This document shows positions 2,426 through 52,568 of a stretch of DNA of 64,000 nt, one piece after another (position 1 is the first letter of the stretch; every line of letters starts with the position of its first letter). A program made the translations under genes and the position numbers. The stretch comes from Patescibacteria group bacterium. GTDB taxonomy: Bacteria > Patescibacteriota > Microgenomatia > Levybacterales > GWA1-39-11. A model generated the notes under the pieces. That model made no database searches and was not told the DNA's origin. It saw only the letters and a list, made by a program, of their open reading frames with translations. The stretch covers positions 5,082 through 69,081 of the forward strand of contig DASZRC010000012.1 of assembly GCA_035549315.1 (NCBI GenBank). The letters run 5' to 3'.

Positions 2426-4888
2426 ATGCCTAGATCTGCCCACAAGTTAGTGTTAGTGCTTACTATTCTCTTATTGATAGTAGGGCAAACCTATCTAATA
2501 ACTACCCCAAAAGCCTTTGCTGCAGATGGCATAAATAAGCAAATAAATTTCCAGGGAAAGGTTGTAAATAGCAACGGTACAAATGTAGCAGATGGAAGCT
2601 ATAATTTTGTCTTTAAAATCTATTCCACACCTTCCGGCGGATCCCCAATTTGGACAGAGACGAGAAGCGGCGGTAACCAAGTCCAGGTACAGGCAGGAAT
2701 ATTTAGAGTATCTTTAGGAAGTGTTCAGAGCTTACCAGGATCTGTTAACTTCAACTCAGATAGTCTTTACTTAGGAATTGAATTTAATGGGGATGGGGAG
2801 ATGACCCCTCGCGTTCGTTTTGCTTCTGTTCCTTATGCTTTTAATGCGGGGACCGTAAATGGCTTAACCGTTACAAATACCTCCGGTAATCCTTTTTCAT
2901 CAACAACCACTTTGCAAATAGCAGATGGCAAAACAGTTGTTGTAAACAATGGGCTTACGTTCTCAGGAACCGATTCAACAACATTTACTTTCCCTTCAAC
3001 AACCGGTGTTGTAGTGACAGAAGCTTTTGCCCAAACCTTAACAAGTAAAACAATTGGTTCAACGGGTCTTATATTCTCAGGGGCCGCAACAGATATAACA
3101 ACTGCAGCTAATGAAGTTTTGGGAATTAGTCCAAATGGGATAGGAAATGTCTTAATTAATCCTACTGCAGGAGGACAAGCAGCATTAATAATCGATAAAT
3201 TAGGAAATAACGATATCTTCACTGCTTCTGCTGCTGGTACAACACGATTTACAATCAACAATGCTGGGGCAATTGGTCTAACGGGTGGTTTTGGTATTGC
3301 AACTCAATGTCTTACATCAAATGGATCTGGAGCCGCTGCATCATGGGGATCATGTGGCGCAGGTGGTGGAGGAACCAACTATTGGCAGCTTAATGGTCCA
3401 GTTTTATCTCCTGGTAATTCAACTGTCGATTTGGCTATTGGTGGGACTTCCACTTCTTCTGCAAAGTTTGCAATTACTGGAATTGCTGGAAGTCAGACCC
3501 CGGTTGCAACCCTTTCCGCCACAACACCTGGTACGGGTATTGTAATTGGAGGAGATGGATCAATTCAAAGTCTTCAGCAAGGAACTCTAGTTTTGGGAGG
3601 AGCAACTACCGGAAATATTAAGTTAGTAAATACAACTGGCGATACAATACTTAACGCTCGTAATAATCAAACAGTAGCAATCGGTGCTGATGCAGATCCT
3701 GGTAATTGGGCAAGATTATATCTTAATGGAGGATTTAGAGCAGATGATGATTTCAGATTCCAAAAAGCATCAGGTACACAATATATTTCAAGACTCAATC
3801 AGGCAGGAAGTGGCGGGGCATCAGGATATGATCTAACGTTCCAGGTAAGAGGAGACAATATCTCTATGTTTGGTGCAGGAGGATTAATTATTAATAACTC
3901 TTCTGATTCCAATAACTTCTTTCAAGTTAAGAGCTCACAACAAGCAAACTCAATCTATCTAACCGGGAACACTGGTAATTTTGGTCTTGGTACAAGTACA
4001 CCGAATTCTCAATTGTATGTAACGCGTCCTCTTGCATCTGTTGCCAACGGAAAAGCTCTTGCAATCTTTGACCAAATAGAAAATCAGGATATATTAACTG
4101 CATCTTATGGGGGCGTTACGAAATTCACAATTAAAAATGATGGAACGGCATCGGTTTCTGCCGGTTTAACAATAAACTCCGTAGGAAGTGTTCAGGCTAC
4201 CAATGGTCAAACATTGACAATTGGAGGAGGAGATACGGGTAATATCACGATATCTCCAAATAGCGGCGGAATATTAATAGTCGGATCAGCAGCCAATGGC
4301 TTAACTTTCAATCCTAGTAGCAATGGTCCAACATATACCGGAACAGCTCGTCCTATAAAATCCGTAGTTTTGTCCCCTGAATATGCCGGAGCCGCTCTAA
4401 CTACAGACGGTTCATCAACAACCAATGGTTCAATGACCGCTGATAATACTCTTAATACCGGTGGGGTTGGTTGGAAAAATTATTATGAGTGGACATCAAC
4501 CCAAGGAGCTTTACAAGATTACACAATTACTGTTCGTGTTACCTTACCTCAAGATTTTGATAGCTGGCAGACCGGAAGTTGTGGTGGATCAACATGCGCA
4601 TTAGAAATTGCATATCAAACAGGAGTTTCCGGAACAACCGACAACGCGGTTTCTGTTCAGGTTAACAACGCGGAAAATAGCCCTGGCTCAGTAATCTGTA
4701 CAATCGCTGCTGCATCAAGCACTACATGGTCTACTTTTGGTTGTACATCAACTGACCTTGCTACTTCACCCACTTGGAATACTGCCGGAGATGTTGCAAT
4801 TTTGAGAATAAAGCTTGCTGCAGATAGCACATCAAGCGCCTTAGCAAGAGTAGGAGATATAACTTTGCGTTACTTTGCAAAGTACTAA
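2426..4888 (+). CDS. large secreted Gly/Thr/Asn-rich surface protein (820 aa)
   Basis: Signal peptide and hydrophobic N-terminus; conserved N-terminal module 'INFQGKVVNSNGTNVADGSYNFVFKIYSTPSGGSPIWTE' of a type seen on tail-fibre-like or cell-surface proteins; long G/T/N-rich region suggesting beta-helix or fibre. Confidence 0.65.
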   Translation: MPRSAHKLVLVLTILLLIVGQTYLITTPKAFAADGINKQINFQGKVVNSNGTNVADGSYNFVFKIYSTPSGGSPIWTETRSGGNQVQVQAGIFRVSLGSVQSLPGSVNFNSDSLYLGIEFNGDGEMTPRVRFASVPYAFNAGTVNGLTVTNTSGNPFSSTTTLQIADGKTVVVNNGLTFSGTDSTTFTFPSTTGVVVTEAFAQTLTSKTIGSTGLIFSGAATDITTAANEVLGISPNGIGNVLINPTAGGQAALIIDKLGNNDIFTASAAGTTRFTINNAGAIGLTGGFGIATQCLTSNGSGAAASWGSCGAGGGGTNYWQLNGPVLSPGNSTVDLAIGGTSTSSAKFAITGIAGSQTPVATLSATTPGTGIVIGGDGSIQSLQQGTLVLGGATTGNIKLVNTTGDTILNARNNQTVAIGADADPGNWARLYLNGGFRADDDFRFQKASGTQYISRLNQAGSGGASGYDLTFQVRGDNISMFGAGGLIINNSSDSNNFFQVKSSQQANSIYLTGNTGNFGLGTSTPNSQLYVTRPLASVANGKALAIFDQIENQDILTASYGGVTKFTIKNDGTASVSAGLTINSVGSVQATNGQTLTIGGGDTGNITISPNSGGILIVGSAANGLTFNPSSNGPTYTGTARPIKSVVLSPEYAGAALTTDGSSTTNGSMTADNTLNTGGVGWKNYYEWTSTQGALQDYTITVRVTLPQDFDSWQTGSCGGSTCALEIAYQTGVSGTTDNAVSVQVNNAENSPGSVICTIAAASSTTWSTFGCTSTDLATSPTWNTAGDVAILRIKLAADSTSSALARVGDITLRYFAKY

Positions 4889-17314: not shown

Positions 17315-17346
17315 GATGAGATAGGTGAACCTATGTAGCCCGAATT
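17315..17346 (-). repeat. pseudo-tRNA fragment: degenerate copy of tRNA-Tyr variable-arm/T-arm region 16 nt downstream of the gene
   Basis: 18-nt exact match GAACCTATGTAGCCCGAA (17329-17346 vs 17379-17396) with flanking similarity (GATAGG...); T-loop shortened. Confidence 0.45.
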
Positions 17347-17362: not shown

Positions 17363-17447
17363 TGCCGAGGATAGGATTCGAACCTATGTAGCCCGAACGG
17401 GCGACAGATTTACAGTCTGTTACGATTGACCACTCCGTCACCTCGGC
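17363..17447 (-). tRNA. tRNA-Tyr (GTA), type II with long variable arm
   Basis: Manual fold: acceptor GCCGAGG/CCTCGGC, D-arm with GG, anticodon stem ACAGA/TCTGT, loop CTGTAAA (anticodon GTA), variable arm CGCCCGTTCGGGC, T-arm ATAGG-TTCGAAT-CCTAT, discriminator A; CCA not encoded. Confidence 0.85.
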
Positions 17448-18245: not shown

Positions 18246-18599
18246 ATGGCATTTAGGTTTCGACAATTCCCCATATATCTAGAGCTTAGAGCTTTTGTGC
18301 TCGAGATCTATAAGCTTTCAGAAACTTTTCCCAAGGAGGAGCAATACGCGTTATCGTCTCAATTAAAGCGCGCCGCAACTTCTTCTGTATTAAATATCGC
18401 TGAGGGATCGATGAAAAAATCAGATGCAGAATTTAATAGATTTATATTAATTTCTGCAGGTTCTATTAGTGAGGTTGTTGCGATAATGGATCTCTGTTTA
18501 GATTTAAAATACATCTCCACTTCACAACACGCACAATTTATGCTAAAATGTGAGAATATTATAAAGCAATTATACGGCTTTAGCAGAAAACTTAAATAG
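18246..18599 (+). CDS. four-helix-bundle protein (TIGR02436; the 'S23 ribosomal protein'/23S rRNA intervening-sequence protein family, a misnomer)
   Basis: Conserved 'QLKRAATSSVLNIAEGSMK' motif and ~117-aa length typical of this family. Confidence 0.75.
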   Translation: MAFRFRQFPIYLELRAFVLEIYKLSETFPKEEQYALSSQLKRAATSSVLNIAEGSMKKSDAEFNRFILISAGSISEVVAIMDLCLDLKYISTSQHAQFMLKCENIIKQLYGFSRKLK

Positions 18600-42124: not shown

Positions 42125-45100
42125 TTAGTGAGCAACGGCCTGTATTGTTACGTCAACAGATTGTTGACTACTGCAGGCGGTTGAAGTAGGAGTTGTTAGC
42201 TTTAGGTCAAAAGCCTGTGTTCCATTTGCCGCCAAATTTCCGGACCCCAGAGCTTGATAGCTTGTTGTAAGAGGGGTCCAGTTGCTGCCACTGTTGGTAG
42301 AAAATGAATGTACATATTGATCTGTTCCGCTTGATGAGCTTAGTGTCCATGGGCAAGAGGTATTTTGCCCGGATATATTAAAATCTTCTGCCACATTTCC
42401 GTTATTAGTAGCTGTTTGAGTATCATTAAGACCTGAGGCTGTTGTATCTTTGTTTTGATTTATTGACATCACTCCATAAGATACGGTTCCATCGGCAACA
42501 GAAACCGATATAACAGTACTTAATCCTCCCCAGGCAACATACCAATATGTGGTTGATGAGGCATTCGTTTCGGAAGCTGTTCCAACACTAAATCCATCAA
42601 GATCAAGGCTTGTTATTGCATTTGTTATACTAGCAACGTTAATAAAGGGGAGTGCAAAATTTCCTACGCCATCGCTTGTTCTTTGAATACCTCTTGTTGC
42701 AGTTCCAGCTGATCTTTTTACCCATAGATAGTCTGGCTGAAGTCCAACACTTGAAACACCATGTGAGGATCCTGTTCCGGAATATGACCCGACTTTAAAG
42801 TTTGTCCCAGTTTTAAACCCAAAGTACCAATAAATATTAGCTGCCGTGTTTACATTTGCAGTAGTTCCAATCTGAAATCCGTCAGAATTTAAAGTTTGAA
42901 TGTTGTTAGCAGTGTCATTAGTTGCTGCAAAGAAAGCAGATGTGTCTCCAGCTTGAGATGAGCTTCTAAAGGTTCCACCCGTGGCACCGCTTCTTTTTAC
43001 CGTTACCATATCGGCCTGAAGTGGTAGGCGGCCAATATTTGTATTGTCTATTCCATTTCCATAGTAGGCGCCAATATAAAAATCAGAAGCGCCCGTGGCA
43101 GTCATAGGGTTCCATGCATTTCCGTAAGCCACCCAATAATATGTCACACCGGTGCTGTTTGCTGTTGTGCTGGTTCCTACAGTAAAACCATTAGGATTAA
43201 TTGCCGTTATTGCTCCTGCAAGATTTGCTGTTGCGCTATCTAAATATGCCGTGGAATCTCCACCCATCATGCTGGTTCTAAAAACACCGGCTTGTGCTGT
43301 ATCTCCCTTTATTATAATTAGGTCAGGCTGAAATCCTAAATTAGTTATTCTTTGATACGCACCATTTCCCGTATATGTTCCTTTTGCCATTTCAAAAGAG
43401 CCACTTGATGAATGATCAGAAGCGCCACCAAAAGCAGCATAATAAATTGTATTACCACTTCCATTGGACATAGAATTTGTACCTACACTAAATCCATCTG
43501 AATCAAGTGAAGTTATGACTCCTGTTGAATTAGCAGTTTTGGTGAAAAGACTTGAGTTGTTTCCATACGACTCGGGTGTATTATAAACAGCAGAAACTGG
43601 AGTAACTGCATCTGCATTTTTAACAAAGACCCAGTCGGGAGAGAATCCTACTCCGGTTATTCCATGGGCAGATCCTGTTCCTGAATAGGAGCCAACCTTA
43701 ACGGCATTTGCAGTATTTTTGAATGCCACAAAATAATAAATTCCTCCACTTGCATTATTTGTTGTGCCAACTGTAAACCCGGTTGAATCAAGAGTTGTGA
43801 AGAGTGCTCCTGTTGTATCTTGAGCCGTGGCATCAAAGTATTGGCCAACATTCGTTCCCATGGAAGAAGTTCTAAATGTTCCTGTGACAGCTGTTGAGCG
43901 TTTGATCCAAGTAAGGTCTGGCTGAAAACCTACATTCGAAATAGATTTTGTTGCATTGCCATCACCCTGATATTCTCCAATGCAAAACATGCCGGATGCT
44001 GAGCAATCTGATCCGGCAAAAGCAATCCAAGTGACTCTAACATTTGCAGTACTTTGAGTTCCGGAGACTGTAAATCCGTCATCTTCCAAATTGACCCACC
44101 CAGTTGTATTATCAGCAGTCGAAATAAAATAAGACGTATTAGGGCCGGGCATTAGAGTTGTTGAAAACATTGCGCCAAGAGTGTTCGAATCAGATTTTAG
44201 AATAACAAGTTGAGGTCTAAAGCCAAGCCCTGTTATTTGAACAGGATTTGTGTTTCCTATATAGTATCCCGTCTGCATTTTAAAGGTTGGTGTTGTAGGA
44301 GAAAAATTATCTTTCCATGCAACATACCAATATGTGTTTGAATTTGTATTTGCTTCAGCCGCTGAACCTACGGAAAATCCGTTAGATAGAATACTCGTAA
44401 CTGCATTGTTTACATTTGCTGCATTTAAAAAAGGTAAAGAACTATTTGCAGCACCATCACTTGTCCTTAGGATAGATTGTGTTGTACCGGATCGTTTTAT
44501 CCATATATTGTCCGGTTGAAAACCTACGGATGTTATATTTTGAGAGCTTCCGTTCCCACCATATTGACCTACTTTAAATTCGGAGCCATTTTTAAACCCA
44601 AAGTACCAATATACATTTGCCGCCGTATTCACATTCGCAGTAGTTCCCACCTGGAATCCGTCAGATGTAAGCGATTGTACGTTATTTGCAGTATCAGCTG
44701 TGGCTGTAAACAGGGCAGAGGTGTCACCTGCTTGAGCAGAGGTTCTAAATACGCCAGCTGTTGCACCGCTTCTTTTTACTGTTACCATATCTGCTTGAAA
44801 CGGTAAGCGGGTAATGTTTCTATTATCCGCTCCATTTCCATAGTAGGCGCCAATATAAAAATCGGAGGCCCCACTATTTGCCGCCGGATTCCATGCGTTT
44901 CCATAAGCCACCCAATAATATGTCGCCCCGGCACTATTAACCGTTGCGTTTGTTCCCACGGTAAAACCTTTTGGATTTATGGCGATGATCCCTCCGGAGA
45001 AATTTGCAACAGCGTTTCCAAAATATGCAGTGGAATCCCCACCCATCATGCTGGTTCTAAAGACCCCATATTGCGCTGTGTCTCCTTTAATAATTATTAG

Positions 45101-46192
45101 GTCAGGTGAAAATCCTAGGTTTGAAACAATAATATTACTGCCAGTGCCCGTGTAAGTGCCGCTTTCCATTTTGAATGTTCCGCTCCCCGGTGATAGTGAA
45201 CTTGCCCCTGCAAAAGCAGCATAATAAATTGTATTACCGCTTCCATTGGACATAGAATTTGTTCCCACACTAAATCCATCTGAATCAAGTGAAGTTATGA
45301 CCCCTGTTGAATTAGCGGTTGCTGTAAATAAGCTGGAATTATCCCCGTAAGATTCATTTGTGTTATAAACAGCAGAAACGGGAGTAACTGCATCTGCATT
45401 TTTAACAAAGACCCAGTCGGGAGAAAATCCTACTCCTGTTATTCCATGGGCAGATCCCGTTCCTGAATAACTACCAACCTTCATTGCTCCGGATGAGTTT
45501 TTGAATGCCACATAATAATAAATTCCACCACTTGCATTATTTGTTGTGCCAACTGTAAACCCGGTTGAATCAAGAGTTGTGAAGAGAGCGCCTGTTGTAT
45601 CTTGAGCGGTCGCCGCAAAGTATTGGCCAACATTCGTTCCCATAGAAGAAGACCTCCAGTTGCCGGCGACTGCAGTTGTTTGTTTTACCCATACAAGATC
45701 CGGTTGAAAGCCAACCGAGGTAATAGACTGTGTAGAATTTCCATTTCCGGAATATGCTCCAATACAAAAAGTTCCTGATGAACTACAATCCGCGCCCGTG
45801 AATGCAATCCATGTGTACCTAATATTGGCAGTGCTCATAGTGCTTGATACTGTGAAGCCGTCGACTTCTAAATTAACCTGTCCTGTTGTGTTGTCAGCGG
45901 TAGCAATGAAAAAAGCCGTATTAGGGCCGGGCATTAATGTGGTGGAAAATACAGCTCCGGAGGTATTTGTATCAGACTTAATTATTACCAGTTGTGGTTT
46001 AAATCCAAGACCAGTTATATGAACTGGATTTGTGTTCCCCACGTAGTATCCTGTCTGCATAGAAAAAGTTGAAGCGTTTGCCACTTTGGTTTTCAATGGA
46101 AATGCGGGATTTTGTAGCAGTGGTGGCCAGCCTGTAAATAGCCAGAATAACAACAGTAAAACAGTAAAGCTTTTTTTGACTGTACGTTTCAT
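42125..46192 (-). CDS. giant secreted repeat protein (1,355 aa): 12 ~90-aa sub-repeats in two ~590-aa super-repeats plus C-terminal shared surface domain
   Basis: Signal peptide; sub-repeat consensus G.Y.G.G.....I...GF.PD...(I/V)K.......(F/W)R(T/S)S.M.......F....(G/N)..(L/I)...GF.VG........YY(W/Y)(V/F)A(F/Y); C-terminal domain homologous to the 41544 ORF. Confidence 0.7.
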   Translation of the reverse strand: MKRTVKKSFTVLLLLFWLFTGWPPLLQNPAFPLKTKVANASTFSMQTGYYVGNTNPVHITGLGFKPQLVIIKSDTNTSGAVFSTTLMPGPNTAFFIATADNTTGQVNLEVDGFTVSSTMSTANIRYTWIAFTGADCSSSGTFCIGAYSGNGNSTQSITSVGFQPDLVWVKQTTAVAGNWRSSSMGTNVGQYFAATAQDTTGALFTTLDSTGFTVGTTNNASGGIYYYVAFKNSSGAMKVGSYSGTGSAHGITGVGFSPDWVFVKNADAVTPVSAVYNTNESYGDNSSLFTATANSTGVITSLDSDGFSVGTNSMSNGSGNTIYYAAFAGASSLSPGSGTFKMESGTYTGTGSNIIVSNLGFSPDLIIIKGDTAQYGVFRTSMMGGDSTAYFGNAVANFSGGIIAINPKGFTVGTNATVNSAGATYYWVAYGNAWNPAANSGASDFYIGAYYGNGADNRNITRLPFQADMVTVKRSGATAGVFRTSAQAGDTSALFTATADTANNVQSLTSDGFQVGTTANVNTAANVYWYFGFKNGSEFKVGQYGGNGSSQNITSVGFQPDNIWIKRSGTTQSILRTSDGAANSSLPFLNAANVNNAVTSILSNGFSVGSAAEANTNSNTYWYVAWKDNFSPTTPTFKMQTGYYIGNTNPVQITGLGFRPQLVILKSDSNTLGAMFSTTLMPGPNTSYFISTADNTTGWVNLEDDGFTVSGTQSTANVRVTWIAFAGSDCSASGMFCIGEYQGDGNATKSISNVGFQPDLTWIKRSTAVTGTFRTSSMGTNVGQYFDATAQDTTGALFTTLDSTGFTVGTTNNASGGIYYFVAFKNTANAVKVGSYSGTGSAHGITGVGFSPDWVFVKNADAVTPVSAVYNTPESYGNNSSLFTKTANSTGVITSLDSDGFSVGTNSMSNGSGNTIYYAAFGGASDHSSSGSFEMAKGTYTGNGAYQRITNLGFQPDLIIIKGDTAQAGVFRTSMMGGDSTAYLDSATANLAGAITAINPNGFTVGTSTTANSTGVTYYWVAYGNAWNPMTATGASDFYIGAYYGNGIDNTNIGRLPLQADMVTVKRSGATGGTFRSSSQAGDTSAFFAATNDTANNIQTLNSDGFQIGTTANVNTAANIYWYFGFKTGTNFKVGSYSGTGSSHGVSSVGLQPDYLWVKRSAGTATRGIQRTSDGVGNFALPFINVASITNAITSLDLDGFSVGTASETNASSTTYWYVAWGGLSTVISVSVADGTVSYGVMSINQNKDTTASGLNDTQTATNNGNVAEDFNISGQNTSCPWTLSSSSGTDQYVHSFSTNSGSNWTPLTTSYQALGSGNLAANGTQAFDLKLTTPTSTACSSQQSVDVTIQAVAH
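42560..46120 (-). repeat. recent ~1.78 kb tandem duplication inside the giant gene
   Basis: Near-identical stretches offset by ~1775-1785 nt (CCATGGGCAGATCC[T/C]GTTCCTGAATA at ~43660 and ~45445; TTTTAAACCCAAAGTACCAATA at ~42815 and ~44590). Confidence 0.75.
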
Positions 46193-47178: not shown

Positions 47179-47703
47179 TTATGTTGGATAGATCCTATAT
47201 TCCACCTCATCTAGAACGTTTCCTTGTAGATTGGTTTTTAAATATTCATTCTCAACAATTCCACCTAGGCTTTCAGCAATTTTTCTGCTTGCCGTATTTT
47301 TCTTATCAACGGGGTAAATAATGTATTTGTAATATAAATTTTTATCTATCCATTTCTTTAAAGCGGTGACAGCTTCTCTTCCATATTTATTTCCATGAGC
47401 ATTTTTCTTTATCCATATGCCTAATTCTGGGGTATCAGAGTTGAGATGATTAATTCCACCATGACCTAAAAACTCTCCAGTTTCTTTGTTGAGTACTACA
47501 ACCTGAAATTGTTCACCTGCTTCCATTTTTTCTCTTGAAGACTTAATGAAAGTTAATGTTTCTGAAATGTCATCTGCTGGTTTTGGATACATGTATTCAG
47601 TTATCTCTTGGGTTAATTCTTTGTAAATATCTTGAGCGTATTTTTCCGAAGTTGGGAGCAATTTTAACCGCTCTGATTCAATAATTTCGCTAAATAAGTT
47701 CAT
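47179..47703 (-). CDS. GNAT family N-acetyltransferase (RimJ/RimL-like)
   Basis: 'QFQVVVLNKETGEFLGHGGINHLNS...GIWIKKNAHGNKYGREAVTALKKWI' acetyl-CoA-binding pattern; extended -10 (TGATATAAT) 9 nt upstream of ATG. Confidence 0.7.
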   Translation of the reverse strand: MNLFSEIIESERLKLLPTSEKYAQDIYKELTQEITEYMYPKPADDISETLTFIKSSREKMEAGEQFQVVVLNKETGEFLGHGGINHLNSDTPELGIWIKKNAHGNKYGREAVTALKKWIDKNLYYKYIIYPVDKKNTASRKIAESLGGIVENEYLKTNLQGNVLDEVEYRIYPT

Positions 47704-47744
47704 TAGAGAAATTATATCAAAAGCGGTACGTTCGAGTCCCTTTG

Positions 47745-47776
47745 GTAGGCCTAAGTAACTATGTTAGAACGTATTA
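47745..47776 (-). repeat. cassette-boundary repeat A4 (GTAGGCCTAAGTAACTATGTTAGAACGTATTA), degenerate tRNA-Trp 3'-core
   Basis: Ends with the stop codon of the 47774..48352 gene; aligns with A1-A3. Confidence 0.5.
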
Positions 47777-48352
47777 TAGCCTTGGCCACTCTGAGGGATT
47801 AGAGAATATCTTTTTATCTTCACGATATACGGGGATAGAGCTAGGTTTCGTAACTTTAGTTCCTTCAGCGTATGCTTGGCAGCTAGTATGAATACTTCCA
47901 TACTTTTTAATTCTTCTAGCTGCTTCTTCTTTTGATAACTTTTGATATTCCTGCCAGGTCATACAGATTTCAGGATGATAATAGGCAACCGTTCCAGTAT
48001 CTACTATTGCAGCCATTCTGAAATCTTGCAAATCAGGCCGCACTTCATAAGAGACTTTTACACACTTTTGATATTTGATAGGTGTAAAGATGACATACCA
48101 ATCTGTGCAAATAGATTCCGAAGGTCTTATCTCAGAAAGAGTTGTTGGATATTTTCCATGAATTGACTTGTAATCTTTGACTTCCTTTCCAAGTTGTGCC
48201 ATTTGGACATCGATTAGATTCCAAGTTCTTGTCTCGTTATAAAGGGGGTCGATAAATTTATATACAAAATAACCTACAACAAGTATTAAAAATAAAGCTA
48301 GTACAAAATAAATGCGTTTTTTGTTCCTGCTTTGGGTATGAATCTTGCCCAT
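47774..48352 (-). CDS. hypothetical N-terminally membrane-anchored protein (cassette gene)
   Basis: TM 'IYFVLALFLILVVGYFVY'; Cys-containing ectodomain; own TATAAT promoter. Confidence 0.5.
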   Translation of the reverse strand: MGKIHTQSRNKKRIYFVLALFLILVVGYFVYKFIDPLYNETRTWNLIDVQMAQLGKEVKDYKSIHGKYPTTLSEIRPSESICTDWYVIFTPIKYQKCVKVSYEVRPDLQDFRMAAIVDTGTVAYYHPEICMTWQEYQKLSKEEAARRIKKYGSIHTSCQAYAEGTKVTKPSSIPVYREDKKIFSNPSEWPRL

Positions 48353-48360
48353 CAGTGTAT

Positions 48361-48420
48361 TATAGCAGATTTGAGGCTAAATCCGTGACAGGCCCTAGGA
48401 AACTTTGGTGGAAGTTATTA
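48361..48420 (-). repeat. cassette-boundary repeat B1 (~55 nt; core CAGGCCCTAGGAAACTTTGGTGGAAGTTATTA plus TTGAGGCTAAAT promoter segment)
   Basis: Near-identical to 48975-49032. Confidence 0.6.
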
Positions 48421-48429
48421 TTTTAGTTC

Positions 48430-48924
48430 TTAATTATAATATTGGGGTTCACATGAAATTCCATCTATATGCCAATTATCCGTTTTACTTAAGTGAATTA
48501 TTGTTGGAACATCGGAAACATACTTGCCCCAAACCACGACATCAGCAGTGTTCCCATACTGTTTTCCCTCGGTAACATAAATCGTTTCAGGTGATTCATA
48601 TCCGCAATATGCTTTTGTTCTGCCCGACATGGAGTCTATCATTTTTTGGGTAAAGTAGTGAGTTGTGATAATCGAATCGCAATTCCATTCAGATTCAGGT
48701 TTTTTTCCAATCGTATTATTCCAACAATCAACATATTTTGTATAAAAGTCTTTTGTTAACATTGCGGGTTCTGAAAGAGGATTTTTAACTTCCGTAACTG
48801 GGATTGGTGCAACTGTTTTATTTTTCTCGAACTTCATACCGATCAAAAACCCCAGAATCAAACCCAAAAAAAGAGCGACAAAAGTATAAAGTTTCTTATT
48901 TCCGATGTTTTTAGACTTAGCCAT
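48430..48924 (-). CDS. hypothetical N-terminally membrane-anchored protein (cassette gene)
   Basis: TM 'LYTFVALFLGLILGFLIGM'; Cys-containing ectodomain. Confidence 0.5.
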   Translation of the reverse strand: MAKSKNIGNKKLYTFVALFLGLILGFLIGMKFEKNKTVAPIPVTEVKNPLSEPAMLTKDFYTKYVDCWNNTIGKKPESEWNCDSIITTHYFTQKMIDSMSGRTKAYCGYESPETIYVTEGKQYGNTADVVVWGKYVSDVPTIIHLSKTDNWHIDGISCEPQYYN

Positions 48925-48974
48925 TAGTATTAGTTTGTATAACTAAGTGTTTTTTGTCAATAGCGTCGGAATAC

Positions 48975-49032
48975 GCATGGCATTGAGGCTAAAATAAGGT
49001 GCAGGCCCTAGGAAACTTGGTGGAAGTTATTA
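48975..49032 (-). repeat. cassette-boundary repeat B2
   Basis: GCAGGCCCTAGGAAACTTGGTGGAAGTTATTA at 49001-49032 preceded by TTGAGGCTAAAAT; copy of B1. Confidence 0.6.
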
Positions 49033-49049
49033 TCCCCGTAAGACTTTCT

Positions 49050-49397
49050 TTAACAAGGTTTTAAATCTGTCACAATCATCAGTACGGGTTCGGTGTTGCC
49101 AAATCCATCTTCGGGATAAGCGATTGGAATACTGGGAAAGGGCGCAATTTTTTGAATTGGTTTGGGAAACCGTTTCAATTCCATGTTTACGTTCCTTACT
49201 TTACGACCAAGCCCATTGTCTATGCAATCTCCTTGAGATCTCCAAATTATGCCCTGTTTTGCAAACTTGACACTATGACCAGTTTGCTCAAATGCTACGG
49301 CTGTAGCGGCTCCAGTCCCAGCTACAGTTAGAGTAGCGGCAAGACCAATTCTTAAGGCTTTATTTTTTATAAAACCAGAAAATCTTTCTGTATTCAT
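49050..49397 (-). CDS. small secreted protein (115 aa), translationally coupled to upstream NlpC/P60 gene
   Basis: Signal peptide 'ALRIGLAATLTVAGTGAATAVAF'; no intergenic gap. Confidence 0.5.
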   Translation of the reverse strand: MNTERFSGFIKNKALRIGLAATLTVAGTGAATAVAFEQTGHSVKFAKQGIIWRSQGDCIDNGLGRKVRNVNMELKRFPKPIQKIAPFPSIPIAYPEDGFGNTEPVLMIVTDLKPC

Positions 49398-49466
49398 GGG
49401 AGAATTATACCAAACGAGGATAATACATCAAACCATATCAGCAATTTTGTAAAGCATTTACCTAAT

Positions 49467-50075
49467 TTATTGTTTTGGTTGAGGAGATTTTCTAAAGAAA
49501 GCAACGGTATCACCATATTGTAAAGGAACCAGAGCCCATGGGTGGTTAAATACGTGACCCATGTCGAATTTTGAGGTGACTCTTCCATCTCCCTCATATA
49601 TTCCAAAATGTTGATAATAGCCCCTTTTTATATCAGGATTAGTTCTATCCAGGCGCCCATATGCTATTATGTCTCCGGGTTGAGGCAGATCAATTAATGA
49701 ATAACCATGAGAGAGAAGGAACTGATGGCTATCTGCCCAAAACTCTCTACCTTCACCCTGATTATCCTCAAGTGCCCATGTTTCGCCCCGTCTTGTGTGA
49801 AAAACATACTCCGCACATCTATAATTGTAGTCGTTCTCAACGCTTCTCGATTCCACAATCTGAATAGTCGCAATATTACCAATACGGTCGAAATACGCAT
49901 TAGATCTTTCCATGGCTCCTTCTCGCCATCCGGTATACCATTCTTCATATGCTCTCCCTGTATATTCTTGAATTGTCATGCGAACAAACGAGGGGGTTAT
50001 GGGAACCCAAGACTGAAGAGCAATTTCCGGGGCTGTTTGTTCGGACTGTGATCCTTGGTCATCTTCTTTTGTCAT
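49467..50075 (-). CDS. NlpC/P60-family papain-like peptidase, no signal peptide
   Basis: Cys motif 'YRCAEYV'; 'PGDIIAYGRL...QHFGIYEGDGRVTSKFDMGHVF' matches the NlpC/P60 'GDLVFF...HVGIYxGxGxxIHA' His-containing blocks. Confidence 0.55.
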   Translation of the reverse strand: MTKEDDQGSQSEQTAPEIALQSWVPITPSFVRMTIQEYTGRAYEEWYTGWREGAMERSNAYFDRIGNIATIQIVESRSVENDYNYRCAEYVFHTRRGETWALEDNQGEGREFWADSHQFLLSHGYSLIDLPQPGDIIAYGRLDRTNPDIKRGYYQHFGIYEGDGRVTSKFDMGHVFNHPWALVPLQYGDTVAFFRKSPQPKQ

Positions 50076-50128
50076 AAAGCAGATGATACCAAAAAGAGGG
50101 TGTCAAATCAAACTATAAGACTATTTTA

Positions 50129-50157
50129 CAGGGCCTAAGCAACTATCTTAGAACTTA
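50129..50157 (-). repeat. cassette-boundary repeat A3 (CAGGGCCTAAGCAACTATCTTAGAACTTA)
   Basis: 14 nt downstream of the 50172..51188 stop; aligns with A1/A2/A4. Confidence 0.5.
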
Positions 50158-50171
50158 CTACTATAGTACAT

Positions 50172-51188
50172 CTATCCTTTAACGAAGCGCATTACAGTGC
50201 TTTTAGGCATTAGCTCAGGGGTTGTAGCGCTATAAATTTCAGTACGCATTTTACCTCGAGCATTTCCACCAATAGCGATTACTGAGTTAGTTTGAAATTC
50301 ATAATCAAAACGTGGGTCATATGTAGGTCGTGGTACGACCCAATTAAACATCCCGTTAACTCCCTTTGCTAATTCTATTTCAGCTTTTGTCTCTCCAATC
50401 CATAAAATCCTGTCTGTGCTTTGTGGTACGGGCTTTACTAAGTATTGATCAACGCTTGATCTGTTATGGTTTTCCGCAGGAGAGTGATTGATTGACATTG
50501 TTTCATCGTTTTGTGGTATATACGCATGACTCGTTTCATCTATGTTAAGTTCAATTCCTTGTATTTCACCATCATTTCCCTCGGGAGCAATTCCGTACCA
50601 AAAATTCCAATCTCTGCCTTGTTCACCTTTAATGAAAAGGTTATTATTCAATGCGTCTTTGATTTCTTTACCCTTCATAAATTTGCTGTTCCAAAAATAT
50701 GGATAGAAAAAAGTAGTGCCTTCAGGTAGAAGAATAGGTCTCCTTGCGTAGTTTATAACTGGAAGCCATGATGCATATGCTTTTGAACCATCAGGTTTTT
50801 CTACTTGATGAAAGTTTTTGGCAATATCACCTGAAGCATCGGAAGGAACATGTATTCCAAGTTGAGCAAAGCGACTTCGGGTGGTAAGTCGAGCACAAGC
50901 AATTGCGTAGTTACTTAACTCAAAAAACGGTTGTAGCAATATCGGGTCTATGTCAATCTCGGCTATCGCCATTCCATTGGGCGGTATAACTACATCTTTA
51001 TTTACTGCTATGTCAGGACCGAGCCACATTTTGCCCTCAAAACGGGTGTCTAATTCTTGACGAGCTTCGGCACGATAGAGTGCAAGTACTGCTTCATGAC
51101 GTGGAATAGAATATATGGGTCCTGTTTGATTTTGGCGAAATGTCTGATACGCCTCTGCAAATCCAGGAACTTCAATTGAGTTTGTCAT
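50172..51188 (-). CDS. hypothetical protein (338 aa; cassette gene)
   Basis: Own TTGATA-N17-TAATAT promoter upstream; no recognisable motif. Confidence 0.5.
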   Translation of the reverse strand: MTNSIEVPGFAEAYQTFRQNQTGPIYSIPRHEAVLALYRAEARQELDTRFEGKMWLGPDIAVNKDVVIPPNGMAIAEIDIDPILLQPFFELSNYAIACARLTTRSRFAQLGIHVPSDASGDIAKNFHQVEKPDGSKAYASWLPVINYARRPILLPEGTTFFYPYFWNSKFMKGKEIKDALNNNLFIKGEQGRDWNFWYGIAPEGNDGEIQGIELNIDETSHAYIPQNDETMSINHSPAENHNRSSVDQYLVKPVPQSTDRILWIGETKAEIELAKGVNGMFNWVVPRPTYDPRFDYEFQTNSVIAIGGNARGKMRTEIYSATTPELMPKSTVMRFVKG

Positions 51189-51239
51189 AATAAGAAGCTA
51201 TATTAGCACAAATGAGGCTAAATATCAACCTATAGTGAT

Positions 51240-51269
51240 GCAGGCACTAAGCGACTATGTTAGAACTTA
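51240..51269 (-). repeat. cassette-boundary repeat A2 (GCAGGCACTAAGCGACTATGTTAGAACTTA)
   Basis: Ends with the stop codon of the 51267 gene; followed on the minus strand by TTGATA-N17-TAATAT. Confidence 0.55.
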
Positions 51270-51602
51270 CTTTATTTCTTCTATCAATGTTTTACCACCT
51301 GGTTGATCTTTTACAAAAACGATAGCTTGTCCTTTTCCTGTGAGTGTATATAGATCTCCATCGTTCATAACAGCTTTTGTCCTTTCGTTTAACTGTCTAA
51401 CTTTTCCATTGATTGTTAATTGCGCTTTCCCAGTTATCCAGTGTAGTGTTTCTTTTCTGTAAACGTTGTGTGCGACGAGGTTCACTCCTGGATAATTACC
51501 ATCCAACTCGACTTCAGCATAATAGTGGTTATTGTCAGGTTTTTTATGAAGATTCACTTTTGCTCCTGGTAGATCATAAGTAGTGTGTTCATATTCTGCC
51601 AT
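51267..51602 (-). CDS. cupin-domain protein
   Basis: 'HWITGKAQLTINGK...GDLYTLTGKGQAIVFV' two-motif cupin pattern; 111 aa. Confidence 0.6.
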   Translation of the reverse strand: MAEYEHTTYDLPGAKVNLHKKPDNNHYYAEVELDGNYPGVNLVAHNVYRKETLHWITGKAQLTINGKVRQLNERTKAVMNDGDLYTLTGKGQAIVFVKDQPGGKTLIEEIK

Positions 51603-51645
51603 TCGACAATTATATCAAAGCTGAAGAATATATCAAACTATATCA

Positions 51646-51758
51646 GCAGGGCCGTAGGGATTCCCATTCGACTCACTTTGTTCGCTCAGGGTAAACTTCT
51701 CATCCCTCCTATTACATAAATATAAAAAATCAGACATTCGTCTGAGGTTTTATACTTT
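51646..51758 (-). repeat. L-repeat copy 2: ~113-nt element starting with an 18-nt copy of the tRNA-Trp 3' end (GCAGGGCCGTAGGGATTC) and containing a hairpin plus T-run
   Basis: ~97% identical to 52384-52496; flanked by GCAGG cores. Confidence 0.7.
51715..51745 (-). terminator. candidate intrinsic terminator inside L-repeat copy 2 (TCAGACGAATGTCTGA + T7)
   Basis: 6-bp stem with 4-nt loop followed by TTTTTTTATATTT on the minus strand; weak stem. Confidence 0.3.
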
Positions 51759-51788
51759 GCAGGCGCTAAGCGACTATGTAAGAACTTA
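51759..51788 (-). repeat. cassette-boundary repeat A1 (GCAGGCGCTAAGCGACTATGTAAGAACTTA)
   Basis: Ends with the stop of the 51786 gene; abuts L-repeat copy 2. Confidence 0.55.
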
Positions 51789-52343
51789 TTTTATAACCTC
51801 AGTAATGGGATGACCTCTATGATATCCACTTGCAAAAAATCCCATGTGATCACCTTTTATTACAATTTTGCCAGGAGATTCTTCGAAGGCAATAGGAGGC
51901 GTACCGCCTAATATCTCAAATTCAATAGGAGTGGCTCCAATTTTTAATTCCGTTGTGCTAATAGGCTTTCCAATTATCGGTTCATATTCGCTGTGTCCTT
52001 TCCTAACATCTTCCTCAAATTCGTCTGCAGTGTCATTATCTGTATAGAATATTTTTCTACAAATTGGTTGCATTTCCCATTTTCCTTCACGTTGTTTTAT
52101 GCGTAATGACTCACCTGTACTAAGAGTGAAATAAACTGATCCCTGGTCTGTCTTAAATACATTCTGAAACCTGTCCTTTTCTTTTATCTGCTTATCAATA
52201 AAACCTTGTATGAGTTGTTGTTCTTTTATTGATCTTTCTTCGTAGGGTATTCCATCAATTAAGTCTTCGAGTTTATTTTTTTCTTCTTGTAATTCGTCTA
52301 CTGTGTAAGGAAGTGGGTTTTCATTAGTGTTCTCAGAATCCAT
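51786..52343 (-). CDS. hypothetical acidic protein (cassette gene proximal to tRNA-Trp)
   Basis: 185-aa ORF; no recognisable motif. Confidence 0.5.
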   Translation of the reverse strand: MDSENTNENPLPYTVDELQEEKNKLEDLIDGIPYEERSIKEQQLIQGFIDKQIKEKDRFQNVFKTDQGSVYFTLSTGESLRIKQREGKWEMQPICRKIFYTDNDTADEFEEDVRKGHSEYEPIIGKPISTTELKIGATPIEFEILGGTPPIAFEESPGKIVIKGDHMGFFASGYHRGHPITEVIK

Positions 52344-52383
52344 ACTGCGATTATATCAAATGAAGTACGTTCGGGTCCCGTTG

Positions 52384-52496
52384 GCAGGGCCGTAGGGATT
52401 CCCATTCGACTCACTTTGTTCGCTCAGGGTAAACTTCTCATCCCTCCTATTCTATAAATATAAAAAATCAGACATTCGTCTGACGTTTTATATTTT
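52384..52496 (-). repeat. L-repeat copy 1, abutting tRNA-Trp
   Basis: Begins GCAGGGCCGTAGGGATTCCCATTCG..., ends ...TTGCAGG; the intact tRNA follows immediately. Confidence 0.7.
52453..52483 (-). terminator. candidate intrinsic terminator inside L-repeat copy 1, downstream of tRNA-Trp
   Basis: Same hairpin and T-run as copy 2. Confidence 0.3.
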
Positions 52497-52497
52497 G

Positions 52498-52568
52498 CAG
52501 GGCCGTAGGGATTCGAACCCTAAAAAAAGGTTTTGGAGACCTCTATGATACCATTTCATCACAGCCCT
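52498..52568 (-). tRNA. tRNA-Trp (CCA)
   Basis: Manual fold: acceptor AGGGCTG/CGGCCCT (one G-U), U8, D-arm ATGA-AATGGTA-TCAT, anticodon stem GAGGT/ACCTT with loop CTCCAAA (CCA), T-arm TAGGG-TTCGAAT-CCCTA, discriminator G; A1 start unusual. Confidence 0.7.

What the first reader, a model, noticed from the sequence alone, without database searches (positions are those of the whole stretch)
51646..52496. Two ~113-nt near-identical elements, each headed by an exact 18-nt copy of the tRNA-Trp 3' end and carrying a hairpin plus T-run
Copy 1 (52384-52496) abuts the intact tRNA. Copy 2 (51646-51758) lies one gene further away and is immediately followed by a type-A core. Both begin GCAGGGCCGTAGGGATTCCCATTCGACTCACTTTGTTCGCTCAGGG and end TTTTATA(C/T)TTTGCAGG, differing at ~4 positions. 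Each contains TCAGACATTCGTCTGA, a 6-bp hairpin, followed on the gene strand by T7: a possible terminator. The structure core-body-core is what attL/attR duplication after successive integrations would give. Alternatively the body could be a small RNA gene or MITE-like element that co-migrated.
Basis: seen in the sequence. Interest (0 to 1): 0.6.

Follow-up and report, generated by a model that had tools for sequence, protein, structure and literature searches.

The report
Decayed tRNA-Trp copies flanking an inserted gene
The two 113-base repeats are terminator-plus-decayed-tRNA-Trp copies that bracket a single inserted gene at the head of a tRNA-anchored array of small gene modules in a Patescibacteria (candidate phyla radiation) genome, an arrangement that resembles an integron but has no recombinase in view.

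Summary
Two 113-nt copies (52384-52496 and 51646-51758, gene strand = minus) differ at 4 positions. Each ends, on the gene strand, in an exact 18-nt copy of the tRNA-Trp 3' end. Each also carries a hairpin plus a T-run of 6, not 7.

Each copy (called Y here) is a composite. It holds an intrinsic terminator, a copy of the tRNA-Trp 5' leader, and an internally deleted tRNA stub. It matches no Rfam family, is not MITE-like, and was not found outside this genome.

The two Y copies bracket a 625-bp module: a promoter, a 185-aa gene and a conserved site, TAAGTTCYAACATAGTTRCTTAGNNCCTGC. They sit at the tRNA-proximal end of an array of eight co-oriented single-gene modules (47.2-52.5 kb). Nearly every unit ends in CCTGC, the last bases of tRNA-Trp.

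The same site occurs at least 26 times in 17 other Patescibacteria loci, next to unrelated genes. It lies downstream of a tRNA-Trp wherever enough flank is available. A tRNA-Asn array has its own Y-like unit and Asn-matched sites.

The att-type duplication reading is therefore supported. The recombinase is unknown: none was found in 64 kb. An independent assembly confirms the sequence and breaks inside Y copy 2.

The parts
52497..52568 (-). Intact tRNA-Trp(CCA), the anchor of the array. Its last 18 nt, GAATCCCTACGGCCCTGC, are the repeated core.
   Evidence: ARAGORN; Rfam tRNA 59.9 bits; promoter-like site 52671-52643
52384..52496 (-). Y copy 1. Hairpin 52484-52467 and T6 52466-52461 (terminator). 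GGATGAGAAGT at 52444-52434. tRNA-leader copy plus 5' stub at 52435-52402. Exact 18-nt tRNA 3' end at 52401-52384.
51759..52383 (-). Inserted single-gene module X. 5' end CAACGGGACCCGAACGTAC. -10 box TATAAT at 52355-52350, 6 nt before the ATG. CDS 52343-51786 (185 aa, no family match). Type-A site TAAGTTCTTACATAGTCGCTTAGCGCCTGC at 51788-51759.
51646..51758 (-). Y copy 2. Hairpin 51745-51730 and T6 51729-51724. Leader copy plus stub at 51697-51664. 18-nt core at 51663-51646. It acts as the terminator position for the 185-aa gene.
51240..51645 (-). Module 2. It starts TGATATAGTTTGATA, which contains a -35/-10 pair at 51636-51609. CDS 51602-51267 (111 aa). Type-A site 51269-51240.
47179..51239 (-). 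Six further co-oriented modules, with genes of 338, 202, 115, 164, 192 and 174 aa (the last a GNAT). Type-A sites at 50157-50128 and 47773-47748. Diverged 'type-B' sites at 49030-49001 and about 48418-48388.

Best explanation
Each 113-nt element (Y) is a non-coding unit made of three parts. The first is an intrinsic terminator. The second is a decayed second copy of the tRNA-Trp gene: its 5' leader and a few 5' bases. The third, after a roughly 50-nt internal deletion, is the last 18 nt of the tRNA. Y is not an independent gene. It is a tRNA-mimicking attachment or junction sequence. The ancestral layout was tRNA-Trp, one Y, then the module starting TGATATAG. A small circular DNA carrying the 185-aa gene module plus a Y then recombined with the chromosome. 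The crossover used the CCTGC-ending tRNA-like sites, or lay somewhere within the 113-nt homology. That produced tRNA-Y-X-Y. The same process, repeated, built the eight-module array downstream of tRNA-Trp. Every unit ends in a site whose last bases copy the tRNA 3' terminus, and every gene brings its own promoter. As by-products, Y copy 1 terminates the tRNA transcript and Y copy 2 terminates the 185-aa gene. Shown here: the anatomy, the tRNA and leader origin of Y, the module boundaries, and the recurrence of the sites in other genomes at tRNA-Trp. Inferred: the circular intermediate, the order of events, and a trans-acting site-specific recombinase encoded elsewhere in the genome.
For: The repeat and the 18-nt core are exact and non-random. 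Y body positions 62-95 align to the leader plus first bases of a tRNA-Trp gene in L002, with score 38 against a shuffle maximum of 25 (0 of 500 shuffles). The hairpin plus T-run is called terminator-like in both copies. Both ends of the repeat coincide with CCTGC. Module X shares its 5' end with the GNAT module (GGGACYCGAACGTAC occurs twice; 0.04 expected). Its 3' site matches a family of at least 26 sites in 17 distinct loci, whose upstream ORFs are unrelated by BLASTP. A tRNA-Trp lies 0.3-1.4 kb upstream on the same strand in every one of those metagenome loci with enough flank, and in two different genomic contexts. L027 has tRNA-Trp|TGATATAGTTTGATATA followed by four modules, each ending in a type-A site. 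L001 also has tRNA|TGATATAG. L003 has a 1036-bp one-gene insert between the tRNA and a 14-nt tRNA-end copy, followed by TGATATAG. L002 has a single Y-like unit (terminator, leader, AGGGC) at the same position. A homologue of the 185-aa gene (51% identity) sits in a tRNA-Asn-anchored array. That array has its own Y-like unit ending in 17 nt of tRNA-Asn, and a site ending CGGAGC like tRNA-Asn. An independent assembly matches and breaks inside Y.
Against: No recombinase of any kind was found among the 50 window ORFs scanned. None was found in ORFs of related loci either. No excision product, empty site or circular junction for this exact module was seen, because no second strain of this organism is available. 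A 113-nt homology could equally support RecA-dependent integration. The 15-nt TGATATAGTTTGATA is also a promoter -35 region, so its recurrence may partly reflect promoter conservation rather than shared ancestry. Similarity of the tRNA-Asn Y-like body to its own leader was not significant.
Confidence: 0.62

Rival explanations
1. The duplication arose purely by homologous recombination. Either unequal crossing-over occurred, or transformed DNA integrated through the 113-nt homology or through conserved promoter and site motifs (the 'minimal mobile element' style). No dedicated site-specific recombinase is involved.
For: The two copies share 68 identical bases, enough for RecA. No recombinase is present in 64 kb. 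Module boundaries carry conserved 15-30-nt motifs that could act as portable homology.
Against: Both ends of the repeat fall exactly on CCTGC. Inserts in other genomes are flanked by tRNA-end copies of only 5-18 nt, too short for RecA. The site 3' termini track the anchoring tRNA, Trp versus Asn.
Confidence: 0.2
2. Y is a small RNA gene, or a cis-regulatory RNA that travels with the tRNA.
For: The whole unit folds better than shuffles (z = -2.6). GGATGAGAAGT occurs at the same offset in the tRNA-Asn Y-like unit.
Against: The fold signal comes from the terminator hairpin. The remaining 67 nt fold no better than chance (z = +0.36). There is no Rfam match. The terminator sits at the 5' side of the unit, so the rest lies behind a stop signal. 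The mini-ORF MRSLP is not conserved, and its SD-like box is 1 nt from the ATG. The unit was not found in any other collection.
Confidence: 0.08
3. Y is a MITE-like dispersed repeat that happens to lie here.
For: It is small, non-coding and present in two copies.
Against: There are no terminal inverted repeats and no target duplication other than the tRNA core. Only two copies exist in 64 kb, both in the tRNA array. There were zero hits in the metagenome and viral collections.
Confidence: 0.04
4. The duplication is an assembly artefact of the metagenome-assembled genome.
For: The source is a MAG, and repeats are error-prone in such assemblies.
Against: The copies differ at 4 positions and have different flanks. 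An independent assembly reproduces 6119 nt with no mismatch and ends inside the repeat, which indicates a true branch in the reads.
Confidence: 0.04

Closest known systems
Genomic islands and integrative elements in tRNA genes (Islander logic; tycheposon islands of Prochlorococcus)
   Same: An intact tRNA sits at one end, with displaced direct copies of its 3' part at the junctions. Insertions are successive and tandem, and the newest lies nearest the tRNA. Partial tRNA remnants are scattered in the island (PMC4383910; 10.1101/2020.12.28.424599, read).
   Different: The units here are 0.1-1.1 kb and hold one gene or none. None encodes an integrase. All are co-oriented, and each has its own promoter and a shared 27-nt site.
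Chromosomal integrons and integrase-less attC clusters (CALINs)
   Same: Both are arrays of co-oriented, mostly single-gene, mostly unknown-function cassettes. Each cassette is closed by a conserved recombination-type site, gene-less cassettes occur, and distal sites look more decayed.
   Different: There is no intI. The primary site is a tRNA 3' end, not attI. The 27-nt site does not fold like attC and lacks the R'/R'' inverted pair. The cassettes carry their own promoters.
Xer-dependent modules (IMEX elements, pdif modules of Acinetobacter plasmids); comparison from my own knowledge
   Same: Both are small gene modules bounded by short conserved sites and moved by a recombinase encoded elsewhere.
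   Different: No dif-like XerC/XerD half-sites were recognised here, and the sites mimic a tRNA end. I did not test this properly.

Membership tests
tRNA-targeting integrative element / genomic island | Intact tRNA gene at one end and a direct repeat of its 3' segment at the other | tested here: met
   Three exact copies of the 18-nt tRNA-Trp 3' end
tRNA-targeting integrative element / genomic island | Integrase gene carried inside the element | tested here: not met
   No recombinase domain in the 8 array genes or in 42 other window ORFs
Integron / CALIN | intI integrase next to the primary attachment site | tested here: not met
   The neighbour of the tRNA is an alpha-glucan phosphorylase, and no Phage_integrase hit occurs in the window
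Integron / CALIN | attC sites: 57-141-nt imperfect palindromes that fold as hairpins | tested here: not met
   The type-A site is about 27 nt and, as DNA, folds at -0.9 kcal/mol, z = +0.74. No inverse-core partner is visible in the sequence.
Integron / CALIN | Array of co-oriented cassettes, each ending in a conserved site next to unrelated genes | tested here: met
Integron / CALIN | Promoterless cassettes expressed from a common promoter | tested here: not met
   Sigma-70-like -35/-10 pairs, or an extended -10, lie 6-7 nt before the ATG of the modules
Known RNA family (Rfam) | Covariance-model match at the gathering score | tested here: not met
   Only the tRNA itself matches; the best other hit in the region is 19.7 bits against a gathering score of 46
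MITE | Terminal inverted repeats, target-site duplication and many dispersed copies | tested here: not met
Intrinsic (Rho-independent) terminator | G+C-containing stem-loop followed directly by a T-run | tested here: met
   Stem of 6-7 bp (3 G-C) plus T6 in both copies. Termination itself cannot be tested here.
tRNA pseudogene / decayed tandem tRNA copy | Homology to the tRNA gene and its flank, without a complete cloverleaf | tested here: met
   Leader plus 5' stub alignment (0 of 500 shuffles reach the score), and the exact 18-nt 3' end. Not called as a tRNA by ARAGORN or Rfam.

The most novel reading that the evidence does not exclude
Patescibacteria (candidate phyla radiation) carry a previously undescribed integron-like gene-capture system. 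In it, the 3' end of a tRNA gene (Trp or Asn) is the primary attachment site. Promoter-bearing, apparently leaderless single-gene cassettes end in a roughly 27-nt site that mimics the T-loop-to-3'-end segment of the anchoring tRNA. A recombinase encoded elsewhere moves them. The 113-nt Y units are gene-less cassettes or secondary attachment sites of that system.
Probability: 0.3. Interest if true: 0.8.

Novelty: new variant of a known kind. Interest (0 to 1): 0.6.

Why it matters
Patescibacteria have tiny genomes, and little is known about how they gain genes. A compact, tRNA-anchored array of self-expressed single-gene modules bounded by tRNA-mimicking sites would be a defined route of gene gain in this group. 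It can be tested with existing reads and with a simple site model. It also bridges two known systems, tRNA-targeted islands and integrons. For annotation, it shows that short tRNA-end copies here mark module junctions rather than small RNA genes.

Tried and rejected
- **Rfam.** I searched the whole window at gathering thresholds and the region at E up to 10. Only the tRNAs matched.
- **Exact search for the body/core junction** (AGTCGAATGGGAATCCCTACGG). No hits in the metagenome or viral contigs.
- **Type-A pattern in viral contigs.** No hits.
- **blastn of tRNA+Y+X+Y against phages and plasmids.** Only the tRNA part matched.
- **Recombinase hunt.** Pfam on 50 window ORFs and 20 ORFs of related loci found none.
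- **PHROGs and PADLOC on the eight array proteins.** Only the acetyltransferase hit.
- **Exact-protein look-ups** of the 185-aa protein and the phosphorylase. Neither is on record.
- **attC-like folding** of the type-A site and of the Y/X junction. Neither folds better than chance.
- **Mini-ORF in Y** (MRSLP). Rejected: it is not conserved, and the SD-like box is 1 nt from the ATG.
- **Leader similarity for the tRNA-Asn Y-like unit.** Not significant; 108 of 1000 shuffles reach the score.
- **The motif TTTAGCCTCAA** at some module starts. It also precedes an ordinary large gene at about 17090, so I do not count it as cassette-specific.
- **Literature.** Searches for such arrays in Patescibacteria found nothing.

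Full report
**Observation**

The window carries tRNA-Trp(CCA) at 52497-52568 on the minus strand. All features discussed here read on that strand. A direct repeat covers 51646-51763 and 52384-52501 (118 nt, 97% identical). The 18-mer GCAGGGCCGTAGGGATTC occurs exactly three times: in the tRNA 3' end and at the tRNA-distal end of each repeat. None is expected by chance. The two 113-nt units, called Y here, differ at positions 4, 13, 44 and 45, counted from the tRNA-proximal end. The last 68 nt are identical. The hairpin TCAGACGAATGTCTGA is followed by six T, not seven. It scores as terminator-like in both copies. A Logan assembly of run SRR12170510 (L030) is identical to window 51675-45557 over 6119 nt. 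It stops 30 nt inside copy 2, as expected at a true repeat.

**Anatomy of Y**

On the gene strand, Y has four parts:
- (i) the hairpin and T-run;
- (ii) a short stretch containing GGATGAGAAGT;
- (iii) GTTTACCCTGAGCGAACAAAGTGAGTCGAATGG;
- (iv) AATCCCTACGGCCCTGC, the tRNA 3' end from the T-loop onward.

Part (iii) aligns to the sequence just upstream of a tRNA-Trp gene in the relative L002, and to that gene's first bases (GTTTACCCTGAG-GAATAAAGTGA--CGAAGGG). The score is 38 against a shuffle maximum of 25, with 0 of 500 shuffles reaching it. Y is therefore a terminator followed by a second tRNA-Trp gene copy that kept its leader, a 5' stub and its last 18 nt.

Several tests argue against an RNA gene:
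- Rfam finds nothing there.
- Outside the terminator, Y folds no better than shuffles (z = +0.36).
- The five-codon ORF has its SD-like box 1 nt from the ATG and is not conserved.

**Surroundings**

Downstream of the tRNA lie eight co-oriented small genes, down to about 47.2 kb. Only two give family matches: a weak CHAP/NlpC-like hit and a clear GNAT hit.

Most genes are preceded by a sigma-70-like promoter or an extended -10 box that ends 6-7 nt before the ATG. Most are followed by a conserved site. Four sites are 'type A' (TAAGTTCYAACATAGTYRCTTAGNNCCTGC). Two are a diverged 'type B'.

Almost every unit ends in CCTGC, the last bases of tRNA-Trp. Two distal type-A sites are degenerate (CCTGT and CCTAC), and the junction between the 202-aa and 115-aa genes has no recognisable site.

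The order is: tRNA | Y1 | X | Y2 | module 2 | and so on. X is the promoter, the 185-aa gene and its type-A site. Both ends of the Y repeat fall exactly on a CCTGC boundary. X shares its 5' end (CAAnGGGACYCGAACGTAC...TTGATATAAT) with the GNAT module.

**Relatives**

The source is a Patescibacteria MAG. The nearest genome is a Candidatus Levybacteria MAG (L001). Loci syntenic through the phosphorylase-tRNA-Trp pair show the following:
- **L001 and L027:** the intact tRNA is followed directly by TGATATAGTTTGATA, the string that follows Y2 in the window. L027 then has four modules, each ending in a type-A site. Their right flanks match those in the window (AAAATAGTCTTATAGTTT; TGATATATTTTGATATATTATTCAGCC).
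- **L003:** a 1036-bp one-gene insert lies between the tRNA and a 14-nt tRNA-end copy, followed by TGATATAG.
- **L002:** one Y-like unit (terminator, leader-like CCCTGAGCCTGTCGA, then AGGGC) sits before TGATATAG.

So a single Y at this position looks ancestral to the window lineage, and Y-X, or X-Y, was added later.

**The type-A site elsewhere**

A pattern search for the type-A site found 15 metagenome loci and no viral loci. With a relaxed match and an HMM, there are at least 26 sites in 17 distinct loci. Up to four occur per locus, spaced about 0.6-1.3 kb apart where several occur together, and their upstream ORFs share no BLASTP similarity. In all six metagenome loci with enough upstream sequence, a tRNA-Trp lies 0.3-1.4 kb upstream on the same strand. 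Three of these are in a different genomic context, a tRNA-Thr/Tyr/Thr/Trp cluster.

The 185-aa protein has a 51%-identical homologue in a long array of small same-strand genes anchored at tRNA-Asn (L023 and L024). Directly after that tRNA-Asn is a Y-like unit of about 112 nt. It has a terminator, GGATGAGAAGT at the same offset as in the window, and an exact 17-nt copy of the tRNA-Asn 3' end. One site in that array, GTTCTAACATCTTCTAGCCCTCGGAGC, ends like tRNA-Asn.

The sites resemble the T-loop-to-3'-end segment of the tRNAs more than shuffles do, but this is a weak test.

**Mechanism**

The best reading is recombination at tRNA-mimicking sites that end in CCTGC. A small circle carrying X plus a Y integrated into the chromosomal Y, or at the tRNA end, giving tRNA-Y-X-Y. 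This follows the logic of tRNA-targeted islands, where the regenerated gene and its displaced fragment mark the ends (PMC4383910) and tandem insertions push older ones outward (10.1101/2020.12.28.424599).

The compact, co-oriented, single-gene units with a shared short site recall integron cassette arrays. The integron tests fail, however:
- there is no intI;
- the site does not fold (z = +0.74);
- the cassettes have their own promoters.

No recombinase was found in 50 window ORFs or in 20 ORFs of related loci. The enzyme is therefore inferred, and a RecA-only route through the 113-nt homology cannot be excluded.

**Verdict**

The att-type duplication reading is partly supported. The sRNA and MITE alternatives are not supported. 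Y is a terminator plus a decayed tRNA-Trp copy that serves as a junction in a tRNA-anchored module array.

I found no description of such arrays in Patescibacteria. I rate this a new variant of a known kind. There is roughly a 0.3 chance that it represents a distinct integron-like capture system.

Noticed in passing
L002:11770-12060; L019 (minus strand) about 3700-3990; L020:150-420: An older tRNA-Trp is split between C34 and C35 of its anticodon by a roughly 165-nt insert. The insert has about 8-bp inverted ends (TCCCAGCA / TTCTGGGA), an internal hairpin, and a complete new tRNA-Trp gene. The old halves in L002 are identical to the window's tRNA. Rfam finds no match for the insert in L019 and L020; L002 was not scanned. 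It may be a tiny tRNA-carrying insertion element or an intron-like insert.
   Followed up: partly
window 17327-17344 versus 17380-17397: An exact 18-nt copy of an internal part of tRNA-Tyr (TTCGGGCTACATAGGTTC on the gene strand) lies 18 nt downstream of the tRNA-Tyr 3' end and is followed by a decayed remainder. This is a second displaced partial tRNA in the same genome.
   Followed up: partly
L023:346-540 and L023:900-11500 (L024 covers the same region from a second, nearly identical assembly): A long array of about 20 small same-strand genes (DUF1801, glyoxalase, DUF1697, PhnB-like and others) is anchored at tRNA-Asn(GTT). Directly after the tRNA is a Y-like terminator plus a 17-nt tRNA-Asn end copy.
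   Followed up: partly
window 47700-52360, module starts: The -10 boxes end 6-7 nt before the ATG of almost every module gene. The same is true in L027. This implies leaderless mRNAs.
   Followed up: no
window 25168-52497: About 26.6 kb separates tRNA-Trp from RNase HII here, against about 4 kb in L001 and L007. The 5.4-kb module array is therefore the tRNA-proximal part of a much larger lineage-specific insertion. That insertion also holds a 1355-aa repetitive surface-type protein (42125-46192), an ABC transporter and sugar-nucleotide enzymes.
   Followed up: no
L005:3411-11100: In another relative, the region after tRNA-Trp holds a GIY-YIG-like small gene followed by several toxin-antitoxin pairs (PIN, ParE/YafQ, RelB, Gp49/HTH). 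This is a different kind of variable content at the same tRNA.
   Followed up: no
window 18246-18599: A protein matching the 23S rRNA-intervening-sequence / bAvd-like family lies next to tRNA-Thr(GGT). L007 has a similar gene and L006 a reverse transcriptase, so diversity-generating retroelement parts are possible.
   Followed up: no
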